Of a stretch of 64,000 bases of DNA, positions 40,981 through 47,264 are shown one piece after another. The position numbers and the translations under genes are program-made. The stretch is from Escherichia phage CMSTMSU. Below the pieces are notes generated by a model. That model saw only the letters and a list, made by a program, of their open reading frames with translations. It was not told the origin of the DNA and did not search any database. How positions within the stretch are numbered: position 1 is the first letter of the stretch; each line of letters starts with the position of its first letter. The stretch lies in the sequence record MH494197.1; one strand, given 5' to 3'.

Positions 40981-41259
40981 TTATATAAGTACTACTAAAT
41001 CCTTTCCTACTAAACATTCAAGTAATCCAACTATAAACTCACTCCCATAATATATAGTAACATAAGTGATGTAGAATGTTTCACCATTATCATCACGACA
41101 TATACTCGCCCACGCGTTTATTCGATCTCTACCGAAAACATCTACGATTGATTCTTTTATAAATTTCCAGTTCTTTTCGGTTGATTCATAATCCAATGTA
41201 GGTGCTCCACAAGTATATTTGTTATACATTGCATACACTGCATCTATGTTGTTATTCAT
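40981..41259 (-). CDS. Hypothetical protein (92 aa)
   Basis: Intact ORF. Confidence 0.35.
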   Translation of the reverse strand: MNNNIDAVYAMYNKYTCGAPTLDYESTEKNWKFIKESIVDVFGRDRINAWASICRDDNGETFYITYVTIYYGSEFIVGLLECLVGKDLVVLI

Positions 41260-41339
41260 GTCAGGTTCCTTTAGATTAATATTATCATTATATCACAACA
41301 TATAAAAAGACCCCATATAGAGTCTTTTTTGTTTTATCC

Positions 41340-42121
41340 GATAATCATTCCAAGTGGATCACCACCATCTTTGTATCTCTTCAACTGTTCTTTAAGCTGT
41401 TCTTGAAGTTGTGCACCTTCATTACGTAATGTATCACCATCCATAGAGAATGTACCCTGTGGTCCGCAATGTAGCAAATTTAGCACGGTTGCGACCCAAC
41501 ATAATCATAGCTTCAGACAATGCCCAGTCACGTAGCCAAGGATAGCTTTGTTGACGTTGGAATAGCAATGGTTCAGGTATATTATGATATACATGTAATA
41601 GCACTTCTTCAGTACCACGAATATCACGGTCAATTATTAGTTTTTGGTCATTGGGTTGAACTGGAAGATGATTTCTCTACCAAACATACGCCCAACTAAT
41701 TCTTGGAACTGAAAACTAAAATCATAAGTAGTTAAGTCATAACCACCAGCGTTACGTGCAGACGTTAAAAGGTAAGTGTTGGTAAATGCGAGTGAAAAAG
41801 GGTCTACTGAGTTACCACTTCCAGAACTTAGATAACCGTTACCATAACGATAAATCTGTTTGACAATTTCAACTTCAGTAGGGAGCATGTATACAGATTG
41901 TGAATCATAGAATTTCATGTTCAAGAATGCTTCTTCTTTGAAGCAGAACTCCATGCTCGGTAGTTTGATACCGCATTATCAATTGCAATTTCCAATTGAC
42001 CATCAGTAATTTCAACTTCAACTGCACCAGCACCTAACATTTGAGTGATAACATCTTTCAGTTTTTCACGATGATCAAAGTTTGGAGCATCTGGGTTTCC
42101 ACCCATATAATCGTAAGACAT
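41340..42121 (-). CDS. Hypothetical protein (~260 aa, possibly structural), frameshifted
   Basis: Starts MSYDYMGGNPDAPNF; track ORFs 41921..42151 and 41637..41954 plus a C-terminal frame. Confidence 0.3.
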
Positions 42122-42328
42122 AAAAAGCACCTCATTAATGTTTATATACATTATTTAGAGGTGCTAATAGTTATTTGGAATTATACAAGCAATACAAGTA
42201 TACCATAGGAGCAAAATGTTCGGTATCAACTAAGTATATTAACTGGGTGTCATATATACCGTACAAATCTCGAAATTTATCTCTGTACAGCAACAATGAC
42301 TTATTGTTGTGTGGGTCAACCCAGTACT

Positions 42329-42757
42329 TTAAGTCATTGTAGTGCAACGTGTTATTACGGTAACCTGATAATATTTGTTTTTAGCCAACTTTTTACAATT
42401 ACTTAGTAAATGCATGATGGCATCAGCGGTAAATGGTCCCAGTACTAAAACTTCTTCTCCATTACCGAAGATACTCAATGGTACAGATTGTTGTCCTGCT
42501 AGATATTCGATTTGTTCTAATTCGAAAATGTCATCAGCAGCATAAACAACCTGTTCCATTTCATTATCTTTAATCCATGACTGCCAATGTTCTTTAAACT
42601 GCTTCGCTTCGTATTCCAGTACATAGTTAGGTGATTCTGGATTGTACTGATGTAGCATTGTCATACCAGCCATAACCAGTTCTTTTGGTGATGGAGTAGA
42701 ATCTTTCAGTACTACGATAGCTTGGATAGTTTTAACTTTAACGTTTTGAGCAGCCAT
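42329..42757 (-). CDS. Hypothetical protein (142 aa)
   Basis: Intact ORF. Confidence 0.4.
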   Translation of the reverse strand: MAAQNVKVKTIQAIVVLKDSTPSPKELVMAGMTMLHQYNPESPNYVLEYEAKQFKEHWQSWIKDNEMEQVVYAADDIFELEQIEYLAGQQSVPLSIFGNGEEVLVLGPFTADAIMHLLSNCKKLAKNKYYQVTVITRCTTMT

Positions 42758-42779
42758 TAGATACCTCTATTATAGAATG

Positions 42780-43075
42780 ATTTTGTTATCAGGAACAATC
42801 AGTGCTGGTTTTTCTTCGATAGCCTTGATTGCTTCAACATAAGCTTCAACTAGTGCAGGGTTTGCATCGCTGATGCTAATGATGTTGGATTTATAAAAAT
42901 AACGCCTTTTTCAGAACTAATGAATTCTAGGTAATCACGTAGAATGATTTCACCTTGTTCGTCAGTACCTAGCTGTGCTGGGTAGTTAACTACTACTGCT
43001 TCTGGTGCATCATTTTGTAGAATTGCTAGTACTGCCAACGCTGTTGATGTTTAGTAGTTTAACGGTCATAGTCAT
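42780..43075 (-). CDS. Hypothetical protein, frameshifted
   Basis: ORF 42850..43038 with flanking frames. Confidence 0.2.
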
Positions 43076-43093
43076 TTTGTCAAGTCCTTTTGT

Positions 43094-43570
43094 TTATTTT
43101 AGAAAGTATAAGTGTTTTTCTGCATTAACCAGTCTGTGGTCAATGATTTCTTTGATAACGTTCCAGTTACCACCGCCTAAATCGGCTCCAATTTTCGGGA
43201 AGTGTACATGAACAGTGCGTTCAACGTTACATAAGTAATTGAGTTGTTTGAAAACATCATCGATTGCATCATAACTCACATACTTAGAACCGTCATTACC
43301 ATAGTACTTTTGGGTAATGCAGTTTGCGATAAGCAAATCATCACTTATAGAAGAATATGAAATTTGTCCTGTTCTTAGAAATCCCATTTCCTTTTCATAT
43401 GCTTTATAATCATCATATGCCATCGGATAACGATTTCTTAGTTCTTTTGCAAAACCCGAACCCATCTTACCCTGTGCATTACAACCATGAGCGATTATAT
43501 GCAACGCGGTTTGATCATCAGTAACAGTGTTGAACAATTCAAACAAATTACCTAGGTGTTCATGTATCAT
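43094..43570 (-). CDS. Macro-domain protein (ADP-ribose binding/processing family)
   Basis: HIIAHGCNAQGKMGSGFA matches the macro-domain glycine-rich ADP-ribose-binding motif (HGCN..G.MG.G.A). Confidence 0.5.
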   Translation of the reverse strand: MIHEHLGNLFELFNTVTDDQTALHIIAHGCNAQGKMGSGFAKELRNRYPMAYDDYKAYEKEMGFLRTGQISYSSISDDLLIANCITQKYYGNDGSKYVSYDAIDDVFKQLNYLCNVERTVHVHFPKIGADLGGGNWNVIKEIIDHRLVNAEKHLYFLK

Positions 43571-43613
43571 TATATTCTCCGAAAGAAAGGACTCTGTAAT
43601 CAGAGTCCTTAAT

Positions 43614-43877
43614 TTATATTTTATTCTTCTTCACCGAATCGAATTTTTTCAATTCTTTTCGTTGTTTGCGAGCAATGGTACTTTTGTGAAGTCTATTACC
43701 ACGTTTTGTGTCTTTCGTAATGTACCATGAATCTTCTGGTGCATCATAATCACAATAACCATCTTCTGTAATCGTCCCTAAGAAAGCAGACTTTTTAGGA
43801 ATGGATGTTTGAGCTTTAGCAGCGAATTGGCCTTTTGCTAATTGTTCACGAAAACTGAGCATAATAGTATCTCCCAA
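43614..43877 (-). CDS. Hypothetical basic protein (87 aa)
   Basis: Intact ORF. Confidence 0.35.
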   Translation of the reverse strand: MGDTIMLSFREQLAKGQFAAKAQTSIPKKSAFLGTITEDGYCDYDAPEDSWYITKDTKRGNRLHKSTIARKQRKELKKFDSVKKNKI

Positions 43878-43907
43878 ATTGTTACGAAGAACTTGTGTTC
43901 TTCATTA

Positions 43908-44150
43908 TTATTTAGGGTTGCTCGAAACCTCTACTGAAGCGATGAATGCCAAAATATCATCTTTACTGAAAGCTTCAATAATATAAGCAACCGCTTTATC
44001 GTACTGTTCTTTCTTAGTAGTGTATTCTTTCATTTTGTGAATTTTACGTTGTGCTTTAACTTTTGCAGCTTCCATATCAGGCATTTTAAATTCAACACCC
44101 AATGTGTCAGCTAAATGTTTTGCACGAGATGATACTTTATCAATATTCAT
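43908..44150 (-). CDS. Hypothetical protein (80 aa)
   Basis: Intact ORF; its start overlaps the glutaredoxin stop (TAATG). Confidence 0.35.
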   Translation of the reverse strand: MNIDKVSSRAKHLADTLGVEFKMPDMEAAKVKAQRKIHKMKEYTTKKEQYDKAVAYIIEAFSKDDILAFIASVEVSSNPK

Positions 44151-44397
44151 TAATTCCAGCGACCTTCTTTAAGACCTTCAACGAAACCAGTACAGCCACG
44201 GAACGTAAACATCGTTTACGAAAATTTGTGGAACCTGTCGTACTGGCTCACCACATAGTTCAGATAGTTTAGCACCATCAATACCAGCGGTAACATATCG
44301 ATAAACTCCATATCAAATTTGTTATTTTCACATACTGCTTTAGCAGTGTCGCAGAATTTACAACCAGTAGTGCGACCATAAATTTTAACTTTCATTT
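44149..44397 (-). CDS. Glutaredoxin/thioredoxin-like protein (T4 NrdC-like), frameshifted
   Basis: MKVKIYGRTTGCKFCDTAKAV parallels T4 NrdC MFKVYGYDSNIHKCVYCDNAKRL (CxxC); downstream frames give VPQIFVNDVYV and GGCTGFVEGLKEG. Confidence 0.5.
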
Positions 44398-44579
44398 CTT
44401 TTCCTTTATTTCGTTGAAACATCGTAACAGCCTTTATTATACTGTTACACATTCGTTCAGTCAAATACTTTTGACAATCTAGTACATCAATGTACATGAA
44501 CTTATCCAATTCTGGGTGACTTCTACCATATCTGTTTGTGTAAGTACTTTTACACTCCAACTCTTCTGGTATAGGCTTA

Positions 44580-44830
44580 TCTTTGGCTGTATAGAAAAAT
44601 AAAACTAAACGTTTCCCTTTCTATACGATACATCACCAAGAAACAGAAGATCATCTTCATCGATTTCATATCCTGTCTCTTCGTAGCATTCACGTACAGC
44701 AGCCTCTTTAAATGTTTCTGTACCTTCAGTTTTACCTTTAGGTAAGTCCCAGTGATTCTGTCCGTGTTGTATGCCCGATAAGTATCTGACCATCACGATA
44801 AAATATTATACCACAGCTATAACGCATAAT
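44580..44830 (-). CDS. Second NUDIX hydrolase (fragmented)
   Basis: Nudix box GKTEGTETFKEAAVRECYEETGY in ORF 44605..44796. Confidence 0.45.
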
Positions 44831-44902
44831 CTTATCTCTTTATCATCAAGTGATGTTCAGATACTAGTAATTATATCAGAAGATGTTAACTTGTCCCAGC
44901 TT

Positions 44903-46136
44903 TTAGAACATTTGCTTGATTGCTTCAATACGCAATTCAGCAACAAAATCACGAATCTCCGATGTTTGGAGTTCACCATCTTTCACTAACTGCTGAATAT
45001 CAGGTAATTCAACATCAGTATAACGATCATAAACTTTAATAATCAAATCTTCAAGTTCAGAATCAATTTCTTTGTTCAAAATGAAGTTTTCCAGTACTTT
45101 GTAAAGGAAATCTTCACCACCATTGTTTTTGATATTCATATCCAGTAAGATTTGTCCCATTTCAACTGGGGTCTTCTTACGGAAGGTTTTAATATCTTCA
45201 CGGAAACGCTTGATGTAATTATAAACTTCACGTACTTAACTGGAACCTTAATGGAACCGTTAAGTACTGAATCATTATTTACTTCTTCATTTTCAAGAAG
45301 TACTGTCCATAAGAAATATGGTTTATATTCTTCTGTACAATTTACAGAGATAGAATCAATTAATTCCAGACGTTTCTTGGTAACTGGAACTGTAGTAAAT
45401 GCCTTTTCGTAATAACCAAATTGTACCAGAGTTTTGATAAACTTGGAAGGGTTTTCTTCAGAAAGTGCTTTTCGAATTCAACAAAACACGATCTGGAACT
45501 AGATGGTCTAGTTCACCAGTACTAACCATATCTTTACACATTGTCATAGTATCATCATGGATTGTAAAGTCGGAGTAACGCGTAGCGAAACGGGCCAAAC
45601 GTAGAACACGCAATGGATCTTCTTTAAAGTGTTCTGATACATGACGAAGTACTTTGTTCTTGATATCAGCTTTCCCGCCATAAGGGTCGATGTGAATCTG
45701 GAGTACTGGATCATATGCAATACTATTGATTGTGAGATCACGACGATATAGATCTTGTTCTAGTGTCACACCTTTGTATTCACTTCGAAACCACCATATC
45801 CAGTACCAGTTTTACGCTCAGTACGGGCTAATGCGTGTTCATTACCTTCTGGACTTAGATATACAGGAAATCCTTACCTACTTGCTTGTATCCAATACTT
45901 TGCAAGTATTTAATATCGGATTCGGTAGCACCGACAATAACATAATCTTTGTCTTTTGCACGGATGCCCATTAAACGGTCACGAACGTAGCCACCAACCA
46001 AATACTTTTTCATATCATTCCCCATCAACCAATCACGTAGACGTTCCCAGAAGCCTTTTGGCTGATATTCTGGATATTCATATTCATCTGTTCCTTGCTC
46101 GGAAACACCCCAATCTTCTTCTAATACTGTAATCAC
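44903..46136 (-). CDS. cca: tRNA nucleotidyltransferase (CCA-adding enzyme), frameshifted; likely true start MKKYLVGG near 46013, preceded by an in-frame ~40-aa module
   Basis: [29 protein letters not shown] and [13 protein letters not shown] are the head-domain signatures of class II CCA enzymes (E. coli: YLVGGAVRD, RRDLTINALA). Confidence 0.7.
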
Positions 46137-46149
46137 AATGCCTCCAATT

Positions 46150-46569
46150 AAATTAATCTATCACGTAGACGGTCGTAATATTTTGCATGTATATCTAGTA
46201 TACACTGAAATGACGGATAGTCAATACTAAATGTATCATCAATGAACATGTACTGATCAAGTGTTTCAGGACCATTATCATAAACTGGCAATGAACCTTC
46301 TTTTTTAACAGTGTGTTCCACATCAAATCACATGTAGTATCGAAAATTGCGTATGCTAATTCTATCTTACTTTTTCTAAGTGTAATTAATAATTCATCAT
46401 TCTCTACTAACGCGTTTCGTATTTTTACACGTACTGTACCCTGAAATTTATTAGTGGTTAGTACTCTATATTGATTATACGAAATCATGCCTCGTATTTC
46501 AGTACTGATTTCTTGTTCAGAAAAGTACCTTAATGTACTGTGGAAATTTGGTATTTTACGAATGTCCAT
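46150..46569 (-). CDS. Hypothetical protein, tandem paralog (frameshifted C-terminus)
   Basis: C-terminal [27 protein letters not shown] parallels SGSLPIDASYEEYLQYQFIDDTFGFDF of the 46556..46966 gene. Confidence 0.35.
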
Positions 46570-46966
46570 TCAAATTCCTTTCGTATATATGGTATACGTT
46601 CATTATACTATTATATAGTTCAAAGTCAAATCCAAATGTGTCATCAATGAACTGATATTGTAGATACTCTTCATATGAAGCATCAATTGGTAATGAGCCA
46701 GAACGAATATCATCTGATTTAAAATCGTCAATATATCTTAATGTTATTTCTTCATCAACAGTGATATCTATCATCAACGTATCGTCACTGTACCAAAGGT
46801 TATGTATACGGATGTAAAGTTTCTTAGCACGATTAAAACTAGATACATTGGTATTGCGATGGAGTTTATCTAAGTTGAAGTAAAACCGGCTCGTTTTACT
46901 TATGTTTTTCATATGTTCTGCAATCGAATCAATTATATAATCAATGTTGAATGTTCTCATAAACAA
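46556..46966 (-). CDS. Hypothetical protein, tandem paralog (136 aa)
   Basis: Intact ORF. Confidence 0.4.
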   Translation of the reverse strand: MFMRTFNIDYIIDSIAEHMKNISKTSRFYFNLDKLHRNTNVSSFNRAKKLYIRIHNLWYSDDTLMIDITVDEEITLRYIDDFKSDDIRSGSLPIDASYEEYLQYQFIDDTFGFDFELYNSIMNVYHIYERNLNGHS

Positions 46967-46989
46967 ATCTCATAGCGGTTTGTGTTTGG

Positions 46990-47264
46990 ATTGTAGCAAT
47001 AGGTATCATTAATTTTAACACGGTTTAAGTGTTATTGTTGTTCCTACTTCAGTACTGGGTTCTGCATCACAATAAATCATCACACCAACGCCACAGATTA
47101 AAGCTAAGATACAAATAATAGCACATATTATATATTCCATCACTCCCCATCAGCCAATCAAAGAGACGTTCCAAGAAGCCATTAGGCTTGTATTCTGGTT
47201 CTTTGTTCACGTCGGTTTCTTGTTCATAAACACCCAAATCTTCTTCAAGTATAATTGTATTCAT
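46990..47264 (-). CDS. Small protein: conserved N-terminal module plus C-terminal transmembrane segment (frame break between them)
   Basis: MNTIILEEDLGVYEQETDVNKEPEYKPNGFLERLFDWLMG followed, in a neighbouring frame, by MEYIICAIICILALICGVGVMIYCDAEPS. Confidence 0.3.

What the first reader, a model, noticed from the sequence alone, without database searches (positions are those of the whole stretch)
43094..43570. Phage-encoded macro-domain protein
HGCNAQGKMGSGFA fits the ADP-ribose-binding loop of macro domains. In phages such enzymes can reverse ADP-ribosylation, for example by host toxins or defence effectors, or process ADP-ribose-derived metabolites. It sits near a NUDIX hydrolase (44580-44830), a glutaredoxin and the CCA enzyme, which together look like a nucleotide/ADP-ribose handling cluster.
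Basis: partly seen in the sequence, partly recalled or inferred. Interest (0 to 1): 0.5.

Follow-up and report, generated by a model that had tools for sequence, protein, structure and literature searches.

The report
Jumbo-phage macrodomain, likely ADP-ribose eraser
This gene of a giant E. coli phage does encode a macrodomain, an enzyme that removes ADP-ribose; public records already annotate it that way, it belongs to a very common phage family, and it probably strips the ADP-ribose that a bacterial defence toxin (DarT2) puts on phage DNA.

Summary

The window is an Asteriusvirus-like jumbo coliphage. The protein is 100% identical to fEgEco12 XBS49371.1, and its PBECO4 orthologue is already annotated "macro domain-containing protein". 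Homologues occur in more than 1,500 phage records, including T4.

It belongs to the ALC1-like class. It has an invariant Gln (Q87) where DarG, TARG1 and PhiKZ AdfM have the catalytic Lys. SCO6735 (a thymidine-ADP-ribose DNA hydrolase) and T4 Tk.4 (T4's genetically shown anti-DarTG2 factor) share this Gln.

The most likely role is an orphan antitoxin-like eraser of DarT2 DNA ADP-ribosylation (about 0.5). The main rival is an Adpp/Poa1p-like ADPR-1''-phosphate phosphatase. That reading is weakened because the relative PBECO4 has no NARP1 genes.

The proposed macro/NUDIX/glutaredoxin/CCA "cluster" is lineage-specific synteny, not a conserved module. The neighbours are frameshifted in the window by homopolymer deletions.

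The finding is ordinary and already known. Interest is low.

The parts
43094..43570 (-). Complete 158-aa ORF (stop codon included) encoding a stand-alone macrodomain
43448..43489 (-). Loop 1 / first ADP-ribose-binding motif HGCNAQGKMGSGFA (residues 28-41). It includes H28 and N31, which are equivalent to SCO6735 H24 and N27, and N31 also to DarG N22.
   Evidence: In 93 homologues N31 is invariant, H28 is kept in 92/93, G29 in 92/93 and G39 in 92/93. Aligned to HxCN of BT1257, SCO6735 and Poa1p, and to VN of DarG and AdfM.
43310..43315 (-). T86-Q87: Gln at the position of the catalytic Lys of DarG (K80), TARG1 (K84) and PhiKZ AdfM (K78). Equivalent to the essential Gln85 of SCO6735.
   Evidence: Q87 is invariant in 93/93 homologues and T86 is kept in 91/93; the adjacent K88 is variable. 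Alignments. Role of SCO6735 Q85 from PMC9411070.
43271..43309 (-). Residues 88-100, the extended 'mobile loop' after Q87 (KYYGNDGSKYVSY). It is longer than in DarG and AdfM and close to the length in SCO6735 and BT1257.
   Evidence: 12 residues lie between Q87 and Y100 in 89/93 homologues. Profile alignment shows 5 gap columns and 1 insertion against M. tuberculosis DarG, and a 2-residue insertion in BT1257. pLDDT dips to about 80 only here.
43163..43198 (-). Loop 2 / second Gly-rich ADP-ribose (diphosphate) binding motif PKIGADLGGGNW (residues 125-136)
   Evidence: P125 and G128 are invariant; G133 is kept in 91/93, G134 in 92/93 and W136 in 85/93. Aligned to PRIGCGLAGGKW of BT1257 and SCO6735.
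43577..43580 (-). Shine-Dalgarno GGAG, 6 nt upstream of the ATG
   Evidence: Read directly from the sequence. Inference only.

Best explanation
The gene encodes a small, stand-alone, catalytically competent macrodomain of the ALC1-like class.

It belongs to a Gln-type branch, with signature H-G-C-N ... N-x-x-T-Q ... P-K/R-I-G-A-x-L-G-G-G-x-W. The bacterial proteins SCO6735 and BT1257 and phage T4 Tk.4 share this signature.

It binds the ADP-ribose moiety between the two Gly-rich loops and hydrolyses the bond at C1'' of the distal ribose. Gln87 (with Asn31 and His28) positions the substrate and a water molecule, instead of using the lysine of DarG and TARG1.

Its most likely job during infection is that of an orphan antitoxin. 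It would remove the ADP-ribose that a host DarT2 toxin attaches to thymidines in single-stranded phage DNA, so that replication can proceed in DarTG2-carrying E. coli.

Shown here: the fold, the class, the conserved active-site signature, the orphan phage context, and homology to the experimentally characterised proteins. Inferred: the substrate (thymidine-linked ADP-ribose on DNA) and the anti-DarTG2 phenotype.
For: 2. **Family profile against PDB.** BT1257 2.6e-26, SCO6735 1.6e-20, Poa1p 1.9e-15, DarG 3e-15 and 7e-15, TARG1 4e-12.
3. **Active-site conservation.** Q87 is invariant in 93 homologues at the position of the DarG/TARG1/AdfM lysine; N31 and N83 are invariant and H28 is kept in 92/93. 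The mobile loop is extended as in SCO6735 and BT1257.
4. **SCO6735 biochemistry.** SCO6735 removes DarT's thymidine-linked ADP-ribose from ssDNA faster than DarG, rescues E. coli from DarT, and is inactivated by Q85A (PMC9411070).
5. **T4 Tk.4.** The macrodomain between vs and tk is the single T4 gene required on DarTG2 hosts and was named AdfM (bioRxiv 10.1101/2025.11.20.689424). I located it. It has the same HGCN...TQ...PRIGAG signature and aligns with this protein at 29% identity over 120 aa, E 5e-12.
6. **DarG models.** The DarG models of NCBIfam and PADLOC are the best or only significant hits in those libraries.
7. **Orphan status.** There is no DarT, no C-terminal DarT-binding domain, and only one macro gene in the PBECO4 genome. 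Mid-distance homologues are also phage-borne; one lies two genes from a Gad2-family anti-defence gene in a T5-like early region.
8. **Second eraser in the lineage.** The lineage also carries an AdfN-family (NADAR) gene. PBECO4 gp432 and T4 30.3/AdfN both hit PHROG 652 (5.9e-45 and 9.2e-51), and its Ecwhy_1 orthologue is cited as a NADAR in PMC7824862. This phage group therefore has the same eraser pair that T4 uses against DarTG1 and DarTG2.
Against: - No experiment exists on this protein or any Asteriusvirus orthologue.
- Identity to T4 Tk.4 is only 29%, and Tk.4 has a shorter post-Gln loop.
- The HGCN...TQ signature is not specific for DNA de-ADP-ribosylation. A homologue with the same signature and a similarly long loop sits in a NARP1 (Adps + Namat) operon of Acinetobacter phage Aci05. 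That is the genomic context in which a macrodomain (Adpp) was shown to be an ADPR-1''-phosphate phosphatase.
- This protein is about equally distant from all characterised relatives. BLASTP bits: BT1257 72, Felixounavirus 72, T4-like Klebsiella 59, Aci05 58, SCO6735 55, T4 Tk.4 48.
- The SCO6735 residues implicated in DNA binding (K34, K89) are not conserved here (S38, about N92). The protein is mildly acidic (pI 6.0), although T4 Tk.4 is too.
- Macrodomains are often promiscuous, so several activities may coexist.
- Macro and NADAR genes are each common in large myoviruses (41% and 27%; PMC9503650), so their co-occurrence is weak evidence.
Confidence: 0.5

Rival explanations
1. It is an ADP-ribose-1''-phosphate phosphatase (Adpp/Poa1p-like). 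It would convert ADPR-1''-P into ADP-ribose. ADPR-1''-P is made either by host RES-domain NAD+ phosphorylases (aRES defence) or as a by-product of 2'-phosphotransferase RNA repair.
For: - PHROG 335, the family it falls in, is labelled 'phosphatase'.
- A phage macrodomain (Adpp of Vibrio phage Gary) was shown to dephosphorylate ADPR-1''-P and, together with NARP1, to overcome aRES.
- The homologue in Acinetobacter phage Aci05 directly follows Prs-like and Nampt-like genes, a NARP1-type arrangement. It shares the HGCN...TQ signature and long loop with this protein (58 bits).
- The phage group encodes Pnk, RNA ligase and an RlaP nucleotidyltransferase, so RNA repair is present.
Against: - Neither annotation nor tblastn with the Aci05 Adps-like and Namat-like proteins finds any homologue in the whole PBECO4 genome or in the 64-kb window (no hit with E<1). 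Free ADP-ribose could therefore not be rebuilt into NAD+ by NARP1 here.
- No KptA/Tpt1 is annotated.
- The fEgEco12 genome paper mentions no NAD genes.
- Poa1p has Ser, not Gln, at the key position. The residue aligned with Poa1p S30 (mutated in PDB 6LFT) is variable here (K/R/V at position 35).
- PHROG 335 also contains PhiKZ AdfM and T4 Tk.4 (T4-like member), so its label is not informative.
- I could not retrieve the Vibrio phage Gary Adpp sequence, so closeness to the tested enzyme is unknown.
Confidence: 0.2
2. It works with the phage's own NAD+-consuming enzymes. It would hydrolyse O-acetyl-ADP-ribose, or reverse protein mono-ADP-ribosylation, produced by the phage-encoded Sir2-family protein, acting as a toggle on phage-driven ADP-ribose signalling.
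For: - PBECO4 encodes a real Sir2-family protein (PF02146, 3.6e-20) next to a Nudt16-like NUDIX (PF22327, 1.3e-18), and a WGR-domain protein.
- TARG1 is deposited as an O-acetyl-ADP-ribose deacetylase.
- SCO6735 also removes ADP-ribose from automodified PARP1 E988Q.
- Iyer et al. propose such toggles for jumbo-phage SIR2, Macro and Nudix genes (PMC7824862).
Against: - The Sir2 gene is about 40 kb from the macro gene in PBECO4 and lies outside this window.
- Homologues of this macrodomain are widespread in phages where no Sir2 was seen in the neighbourhoods examined.
- There is no fusion or operon link between the two.
Confidence: 0.1
3. One reading: macro, NUDIX, glutaredoxin and CCA-adding enzyme form one co-functioning nucleotide/ADP-ribose handling cluster. 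For example, the macro would release ADP-ribose and the NUDIX would degrade it.
For: - All four genes are real, co-directional and within 3.3 kb.
- The same order is kept in a Klebsiella jumbo phage whose macro is only 62% identical.
- Macro-then-Nudix processing of ADP-ribose has been proposed for jumbo phages (PMC7824862).
Against: - The genes sit in a block of more than 50 same-strand genes that also contains tail and neck genes.
- They are interrupted by small genes of unknown function.
- No other phage lineage with a homologue keeps these neighbours.
- The NUDIX has no detectable ADP-ribose-specific affinity; only Nudix-box matches to MutT/Ap4A-type proteins were found.
- Glutaredoxin and CCA enzyme have well-understood unrelated roles (established knowledge).
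Confidence: 0.05
4. It is a non-catalytic ADP-ribose or nucleotide-signal binder (reader or sponge) rather than an enzyme.
For: Some macrodomains only bind ADP-ribose (PMC9503650). One phage record annotates a homologue as 'high-affinity ADP-ribose binding module protein'.
Against: Every residue known to be needed for catalysis in the nearest characterised enzyme is invariant or nearly so across 93 homologues (SCO6735 H24, N27 and Q85 correspond to H28, N31 and Q87). That pattern is typical of an active enzyme.
Confidence: 0.03

Closest known systems
T4 Tk.4 (AdfM of phage T4), anti-DarTG2 macrodomain (bioRxiv 10.1101/2025.11.20.689424)
   Same: A stand-alone macrodomain of about 155 aa in a lytic coliphage. 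Same HGCN...TQ...P(K/R)IGAG signature. Detectable homology (29% identity, E 5e-12). Same PHROG (T4-like member). The phage also carries an AdfN-family NADAR.
   Different: Only distantly related. Tk.4 has a shorter loop after the Gln. Different genomic neighbourhood, between vs and tk. Tk.4 has genetic evidence; this protein has none.
SCO6735 (Streptomyces coelicolor, PDB 5E3B) and BT1257 (Bacteroides thetaiotaomicron, PDB 2FG1/2AFC): the Gln-type subclass of ALC1-like macrodomains
   Same: Best sequence, profile and structural matches. Gln at the catalytic-Lys position, His and Asn of the HxCN motif, extended mobile loop. SCO6735 is a proven thymidine-ADP-ribose DNA hydrolase (PMC9411070).
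   Different: These are bacterial chromosomal proteins with 23-26% identity to this one. They are basic (pI 9-10) whereas this protein has pI 6.0. SCO6735 K34 and K89 are not conserved here. The loop here is 1-2 residues shorter.
PhiKZ gp104 AdfM (chimallivirus anti-DarT2 macrodomain, PMC13309987) and the DarG2 antitoxin macrodomain (PDB 5M3E, 5M3I)
   Different: These use a catalytic Lys (K78 in AdfM, K80 in DarG) and lack the His of HGCN; here the residue is Gln87. Only 30-34 bits pairwise. DarG has a C-terminal DarT-binding domain and an adjacent DarT; this protein has neither. PhiKZ AdfM is imported into a phage nucleus, a structure not known for this phage group.
Adpp (NARP1-associated macrodomain, Vibrio phage Gary; bioRxiv 10.64898/2026.01.28.702374) and yeast Poa1p (PDB 6LFQ)
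   Different: No NARP1 genes in the PBECO4 genome or in the window. Poa1p has Ser at the Gln position and a large insertion before loop 2. The tested Adpp sequence itself could not be compared.

Membership tests
Macro domain (Pfam PF01661 / macro fold) | Three-layer alpha/beta/alpha fold with a central mixed sheet, recognisably superimposable on solved macrodomains | tested here: met
Macro domain (Pfam PF01661 / macro fold) | Two Gly-rich ADP-ribose-binding loops (N-x6-G-x-G after strand 2; G-x-x-G-G before the last helices) | tested here: met
   N31...G37-S38-G39 and G128...G132-G133-G134, conserved across 93 homologues.
Macro domain (Pfam PF01661 / macro fold) | Score above Pfam's gathering threshold | tested here: not met
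   20.2 bits against a cut-off of 22. The alignment covers 115 of 118 profile positions, and many homologues carry precomputed PF01661 hits. This is a near miss of the sequence model, not evidence against the fold.
ALC1-like macrodomains, Gln-type subclass (SCO6735/BT1257) | Closest sequence and structure relatives are SCO6735 and BT1257 rather than MacroD, PARG or viral types | tested here: met
ALC1-like macrodomains, Gln-type subclass (SCO6735/BT1257) | Gln replaces the catalytic Lys of DarG and TARG1 (SCO6735 Gln85) | tested here: met
   Q87 aligned to SCO6735 Q85, BT1257 Q, DarG K and AdfM K. Invariant in 93/93.
ALC1-like macrodomains, Gln-type subclass (SCO6735/BT1257) | Mobile loop about 5 residues longer than in DarG and TARG1 | tested here: met
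   The family profile is about 4 residues longer than M. tuberculosis DarG here and 2 shorter than BT1257. 12 residues lie between Q87 and Y100 in 89/93. Slightly shorter than in the founding members.
ALC1-like macrodomains, Gln-type subclass (SCO6735/BT1257) | Hydrolysis of thymidine-linked ADP-ribose on ssDNA | not testable with these tools
   Needs biochemistry.
DarG antitoxin (NCBIfam NF048014, type II/IV TA system DarTG2) | Full-length match above the curated cut-off, with an N-terminal macrodomain plus a C-terminal DarT-binding domain | tested here: not met
   32.7 bits against a cut-off of 250. The match covers only profile positions 20-139 of 338, and the protein ends at residue 158.
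DarG antitoxin (NCBIfam NF048014, type II/IV TA system DarTG2) | Catalytic lysine (K80 in T. aquaticus DarG) | tested here: not met
   Gln87 occupies that position.
DarG antitoxin (NCBIfam NF048014, type II/IV TA system DarTG2) | Encoded next to a DarT toxin gene | tested here: not met
   The neighbours are small unknown genes, glutaredoxin, NUDIX, CCA enzyme and a neck protein. No DarT is annotated anywhere in PBECO4.
Phage anti-DarT factor macro (AdfM), T4 Tk.4 type | Stand-alone phage macrodomain homologous to T4 Tk.4 with the same active-site signature | tested here: met
   E 5e-12, 29% identity. Shared HGCN...TQ...PxIGAG signature.
Phage anti-DarT factor macro (AdfM), T4 Tk.4 type | Needed for phage growth on DarTG2 hosts / removes DarT2 ADP-ribose from DNA | not testable with these tools
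   Genetic and biochemical assays are required.
Adpp (phosphatase of the NARP1-AP pathway) | Encoded within or next to a NARP1 operon (Adps + Namat) | tested here: not met
   No Adps or Namat homologue in the window or in the complete PBECO4 genome by annotation or tblastn. The full fEgEco12 genome was not scanned.
Adpp (phosphatase of the NARP1-AP pathway) | Sequence similarity to the tested Adpp (Vibrio phage Gary KNV71_gp137) / ADPR-1''-P phosphatase activity | not tested
   The sequence could not be retrieved with the available tools. Only the NARP1-linked Aci05 homologue was compared (58 bits).

The most novel reading that the evidence does not exclude
The Gln-type macrodomains of large lytic phages might not be dedicated anti-DarT2 enzymes. 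They could be broad erasers that also act on ADP-ribosylated RNA or tRNA, such as CmdTAC-type mRNA modification or ADP-ribosylated RNA ends. In this jumbo-phage lineage the gene would then have been recruited into a translation and tRNA-maintenance neighbourhood (CCA-adding enzyme, a gene some records call peptidyl-tRNA hydrolase, an HPF/RaiA-like factor) to protect the phage's translation apparatus. Nothing in my data excludes RNA substrates. Nothing specifically supports them either, beyond lineage-specific gene order.
Probability: 0.07. Interest if true: 0.55.

Novelty: already known. Interest (0 to 1): 0.2.

Why it matters
It matters little as a discovery. An identical protein is already deposited (fEgEco12 XBS49371.1). 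Its orthologues are annotated as macro domain or Appr-1-p processing proteins. Macro domains are reported in 56% of jumbo phages (PMC9503650). Phage macrodomains of this class have recently been shown to counter DarTG2 and aRES.

What this analysis adds is a finer placement. The protein belongs to the Gln-type branch (SCO6735, BT1257, T4 Tk.4), not the Lys-type DarG/PhiKZ-AdfM branch. The PHROG label "phosphatase" lumps together at least two experimentally distinct activities.

For phage-therapy candidates of the Asteriusvirus group, such as fEgEco12, knowing whether this gene gives resistance to DarTG2 or to NAD+-phosphorylase defences would help predict host range. It is also a convenient additional test case for what determines substrate choice in Gln-type macrodomains: DNA-linked ADP-ribose or ADPR-1''-phosphate.

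Tried and rejected
1. **Catalytic lysine.** I first suspected K88 ('ITQKYY') was the DarG/TARG1-type catalytic lysine. Alignments show the lysine column is Q87, and K88 is variable. Rejected.
2. **PHROG label.** The PHROG 335 label 'phosphatase' is not evidence of function, because PhiKZ AdfM and T4-like Tk.4 proteins fall in the same PHROG.
3. **NARP1-AP membership.** I scanned the whole PBECO4 genome by annotation and by tblastn with the Aci05 Adps-like and Namat-like proteins and found nothing. Not supported for this lineage.
4. **Vibrio phage Gary Adpp.** I tried a paper search, a spread listing of tblastn hits and a Vibrio phage from the same kind of host (Bakedbeans, which is not in a NARP1 operon). 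All failed.
5. **Net charge.** I tested pI and net charge as a discriminator of DNA binding. It is uninformative, because T4 Tk.4 is as acidic as this protein.
6. **NUDIX specificity.** PDB sequence search gave only Nudix-box hits, so the substrate is undetermined.
7. **NADAR confirmation.** Pfam, PDB phmmer and BLASTP against T4 30.3 were all negative for PBECO4 gp432. Only the shared PHROG 652 supports the NADAR assignment.
8. **Literature on close relatives.** The Poa1p mutagenesis paper is not in the library. The fEgEco12 and phAPEC6 papers do not mention the gene.
9. **Promoter scan.** Sigma-70-like matches around the gene are no more frequent than in shuffled sequence (8 found against 6.4 expected), so no promoter is claimed.
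Full report
**1. The observation**

The finding's coordinates match a single ORF, 43094..43570 on the minus strand, with an ATG start and 158 codons. A GGAG lies 6 nt before the start codon (read). The quoted peptide HGCNAQGKMGSGFA is residues 28-41.

The ORF is a macrodomain by every test:
- Pfam Macro aligns almost end to end, at a score just under the gathering threshold (E 5.7e-4, 20.2 bits against 22).
- PHROG 335 matches at 2.9e-46.
- Solved macrodomains match by sequence alone: BT1257 1.2e-15, SCO6735 3.3e-11, Poa1p 2e-6, T. aquaticus DarG 9e-4.
- The DarG models of NCBIfam and PADLOC match over their macrodomain part.
- An AlphaFold2 model built on 93 homologues has pLDDT 95 and pTM 0.91.

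**2. What the window is, and a caveat about its sequence**

The region is 99.3% identical to Escherichia phage fEgEco12 and 87% identical to PBECO4, the type of the genus Asteriusvirus. These are jumbo myoviruses of 348-384 kb.

An alignment of 41000-47000 with fEgEco12 shows 34 bases missing from the window, mostly in homopolymer runs, and only 14 substitutions. As a result the neck protein, glutaredoxin, NUDIX and CCA-enzyme genes appear as strings of short ORFs in the window. They are intact in fEgEco12, Ecwhy_1 and PBECO4.

No deletion falls inside the macro ORF. Its product is 100% identical to fEgEco12 XBS49371.1. I therefore used the fEgEco12 copies to characterise the neighbours.

**3. 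It is already annotated and belongs to a very large family**

- The PBECO4 orthologue is 'macro domain-containing protein' in RefSeq. The Ecwhy_1 orthologue is 'Appr-1-p processing domain protein'. Pharokka-style records call it 'phosphatase'.
- tblastn finds homologues in 1,510 phage records. A related query finds 2,461, including T4.
- An exhaustive HMMER scan finds 7,493 cluster representatives at E<=1e-3.
- A published survey reports macro domains in 56% of jumbo phages and 41% of myoviruses (PMC9503650).

**4. Which kind of macrodomain**

Within that class the residue at the catalytic-lysine position is diagnostic:
- DarG, TARG1 and PhiKZ AdfM have Lys.
- SCO6735 and BT1257 have Gln.
- Poa1p has Ser.

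This protein has Gln87, which is invariant in all 93 homologues. The neighbouring Lys88, which I first suspected, is variable. His28 and Asn31 (equivalent to SCO6735 H24 and N27) and both Gly-rich loops are also conserved. The loop after the Gln is extended, as described for the SCO6735 subclass.

SCO6735 removes DarT's thymidine-linked ADP-ribose from ssDNA faster than DarG, rescues E. coli from DarT, and is dead as Q85A (PMC9411070).

**5. Experimental anchors in phages**

Three recent studies matter.
- PhiKZ gp104 'AdfM' is a DarG2-like, Lys-type macrodomain that counters DarTG2 (PMC13309987). It is only remotely similar to this protein (30 bits).
- A transposon screen found that T4 tk.4, a macrodomain, is the single T4 gene needed on DarTG2 hosts, and also named it AdfM (bioRxiv 10.1101/2025.11.20.689424). 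I located Tk.4 between vs and tk. It carries the same HGCN...TQ...PRIGAG signature as this protein and aligns at 29% identity, E 5e-12.
- Some NARP1 operons include a Poa1p-like macrodomain, Adpp. It dephosphorylates ADPR-1''-phosphate made by the aRES defence so that NARP1 can rebuild NAD+ (bioRxiv 10.64898/2026.01.28.702374).

A homologue in Acinetobacter phage Aci05 sits directly after Prs-like and Nampt-like genes. It also has the Gln signature and a long loop. So the signature alone does not separate the two activities. PHROG 335 lumps all of them, AdfM included.

**6. Context as a discriminator**

I read the annotation of the complete PBECO4 genome and ran tblastn with the Aci05 Adps-like and Namat-like proteins against it and against the window. 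There is no homologue with E<1. An Adpp would therefore have no NARP1 to feed in this lineage. I did not scan the whole fEgEco12 genome; its genome paper mentions no NAD genes.

The lineage does encode:
- a Sir2-family protein next to a Nudt16-like NUDIX;
- a WGR-domain protein;
- Pnk, RNA ligase and an RlaP nucleotidyltransferase;
- a gene (PBECO4 gp432, Ecwhy_1 QAY00367.1) that the jumbo-phage survey lists as a NADAR.

Pfam, PDB and BLAST do not detect the NADAR. However, gp432 and T4 AdfN (30.3) hit the same PHROG 652 at 5.9e-45 and 9.2e-51. This phage group thus has the same eraser pair as T4, which uses AdfN against DarTG1 and Tk.4 against DarTG2.

Mid-distance homologues (about 45% identity) are also phage-borne orphans. 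One lies two genes from a Gad2-family anti-defence gene in a T5-like early region. Another lies near rIIB in a T4-like phage.

**7. The 'cluster' idea**

NUDIX, glutaredoxin and a CCA-type nucleotidyltransferase are real. They lie within 3.3 kb on the same strand. They are separated by small genes of unknown function and embedded in a same-strand block of more than 50 genes with tail and neck genes.

The order is kept in a Klebsiella jumbo relative but in no other lineage examined. The NUDIX matches solved structures only through its Nudix box. I see conserved synteny within one phage group, not a functional module.

**8. Verdict**

The protein is a catalytically competent, stand-alone, Gln-type ALC1-like macrodomain.

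- Most likely (about 0.5), it removes DarT2-type ADP-ribose from phage DNA, like T4 Tk.4 and SCO6735.
- An Adpp/Poa1p-like phosphatase role is the main rival (about 0.2).
- A link to the phage's own Sir2 is possible (about 0.1).

It is not a DarG: the lysine, the C-terminal domain and the toxin neighbour are all absent. It probably works like one.

The identity of the gene is already in public annotation, and its family has been surveyed and partly characterised. I rate it as already known, with low interest.

Noticed in passing
window 41000-47000 (for example 41303, 41322, 41465, 42377, 42389, 44199, 44402, 44614, 45468, 45772, 45865, 46019): Relative to the 99.3%-identical phage fEgEco12, the window lacks 34 bases, mostly in homopolymer runs, and has only 14 substitutions. 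All indels are deletions in the window. This frameshifts the neck protein, a 125-aa unknown gene, glutaredoxin, NUDIX and CCA-enzyme genes. It looks like uncorrected long-read assembly error rather than biology.
   Followed up: yes
window 43587-43610 and 43886-43903: Palindromic hairpins (10 bp and 7 bp stems, 4-nt loops) sit in the short intergenic gaps just upstream of the macro gene and of the next gene but one. The scan flags them as terminator-like on the plus strand, although all local genes are on the minus strand. Their function is unknown.
   Followed up: no
L009:30250-31550 (PBECO4 gp094/gp095); L009:24973-25944 (gp086): The phage group encodes a Sir2-family protein (PF02146, 3.6e-20) directly next to a Nudt16-like NUDIX (PF22327, 1.3e-18). 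It also encodes a 322-aa protein with a C-terminal WGR domain, a domain typical of PARPs. This is a second NAD+/ADP-ribose locus about 40 kb from the macro gene and outside this window.
   Followed up: partly
L012:42584-43075 (PBECO4 gp432; Ecwhy_1 QAY00367.1 at L029:1585-2076): A 163-aa protein with no Pfam, PDB or BLAST match to T4 30.3 falls in the same PHROG (652, 'unknown function') as T4 AdfN/30.3. It is listed as a NADAR in PMC7824862. It is probably an AdfN-family anti-DarT1 enzyme that standard annotation misses.
   Followed up: partly
L007:2977-3762 (Escherichia phage PHB11, Felixounavirus): The Felixounavirus homologue is a 261-aa protein. The Gln-type macrodomain is fused to a C-terminal extension of about 100 aa of unknown function, and the gene lies near a PseT polynucleotide kinase gene.
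   Followed up: no
L006:404-3974 (Acinetobacter phage Aci05): An RNA ligase gene, a Prs-like gene, a Nampt-like gene and the macro homologue are packed together; the macro start overlaps the Nampt-like stop. This looks like a NARP1 operon with an associated phosphatase (NARP1-AP).
   Followed up: partly
L011:22251-34510 (PBECO4 gp286-gp296): Ten tandem paralogues annotated 'regulator of chromosome condensation' (RCC1-like), each about 1.1 kb, lie on the strand opposite to nearly all surrounding genes.
   Followed up: no
window 42329-42757; L003:4394-4771 (fEgEco12 g291): The gene two positions downstream of the macro gene is called 'aminoacyl-tRNA hydrolase' or 'peptidyl-tRNA hydrolase' in some records. 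It has no Pfam hit and falls in an unknown-function PHROG (14786), so that annotation looks unsupported.
   Followed up: partly
L019:5868-6500 and L019:8253-8639 (metagenomic T5-like phage contig): A 46%-identical macro homologue lies two genes upstream of a Gad2-family (anti-Gabija) gene and near a T5 A2 homologue. This suggests an early-region anti-defence island.
   Followed up: no
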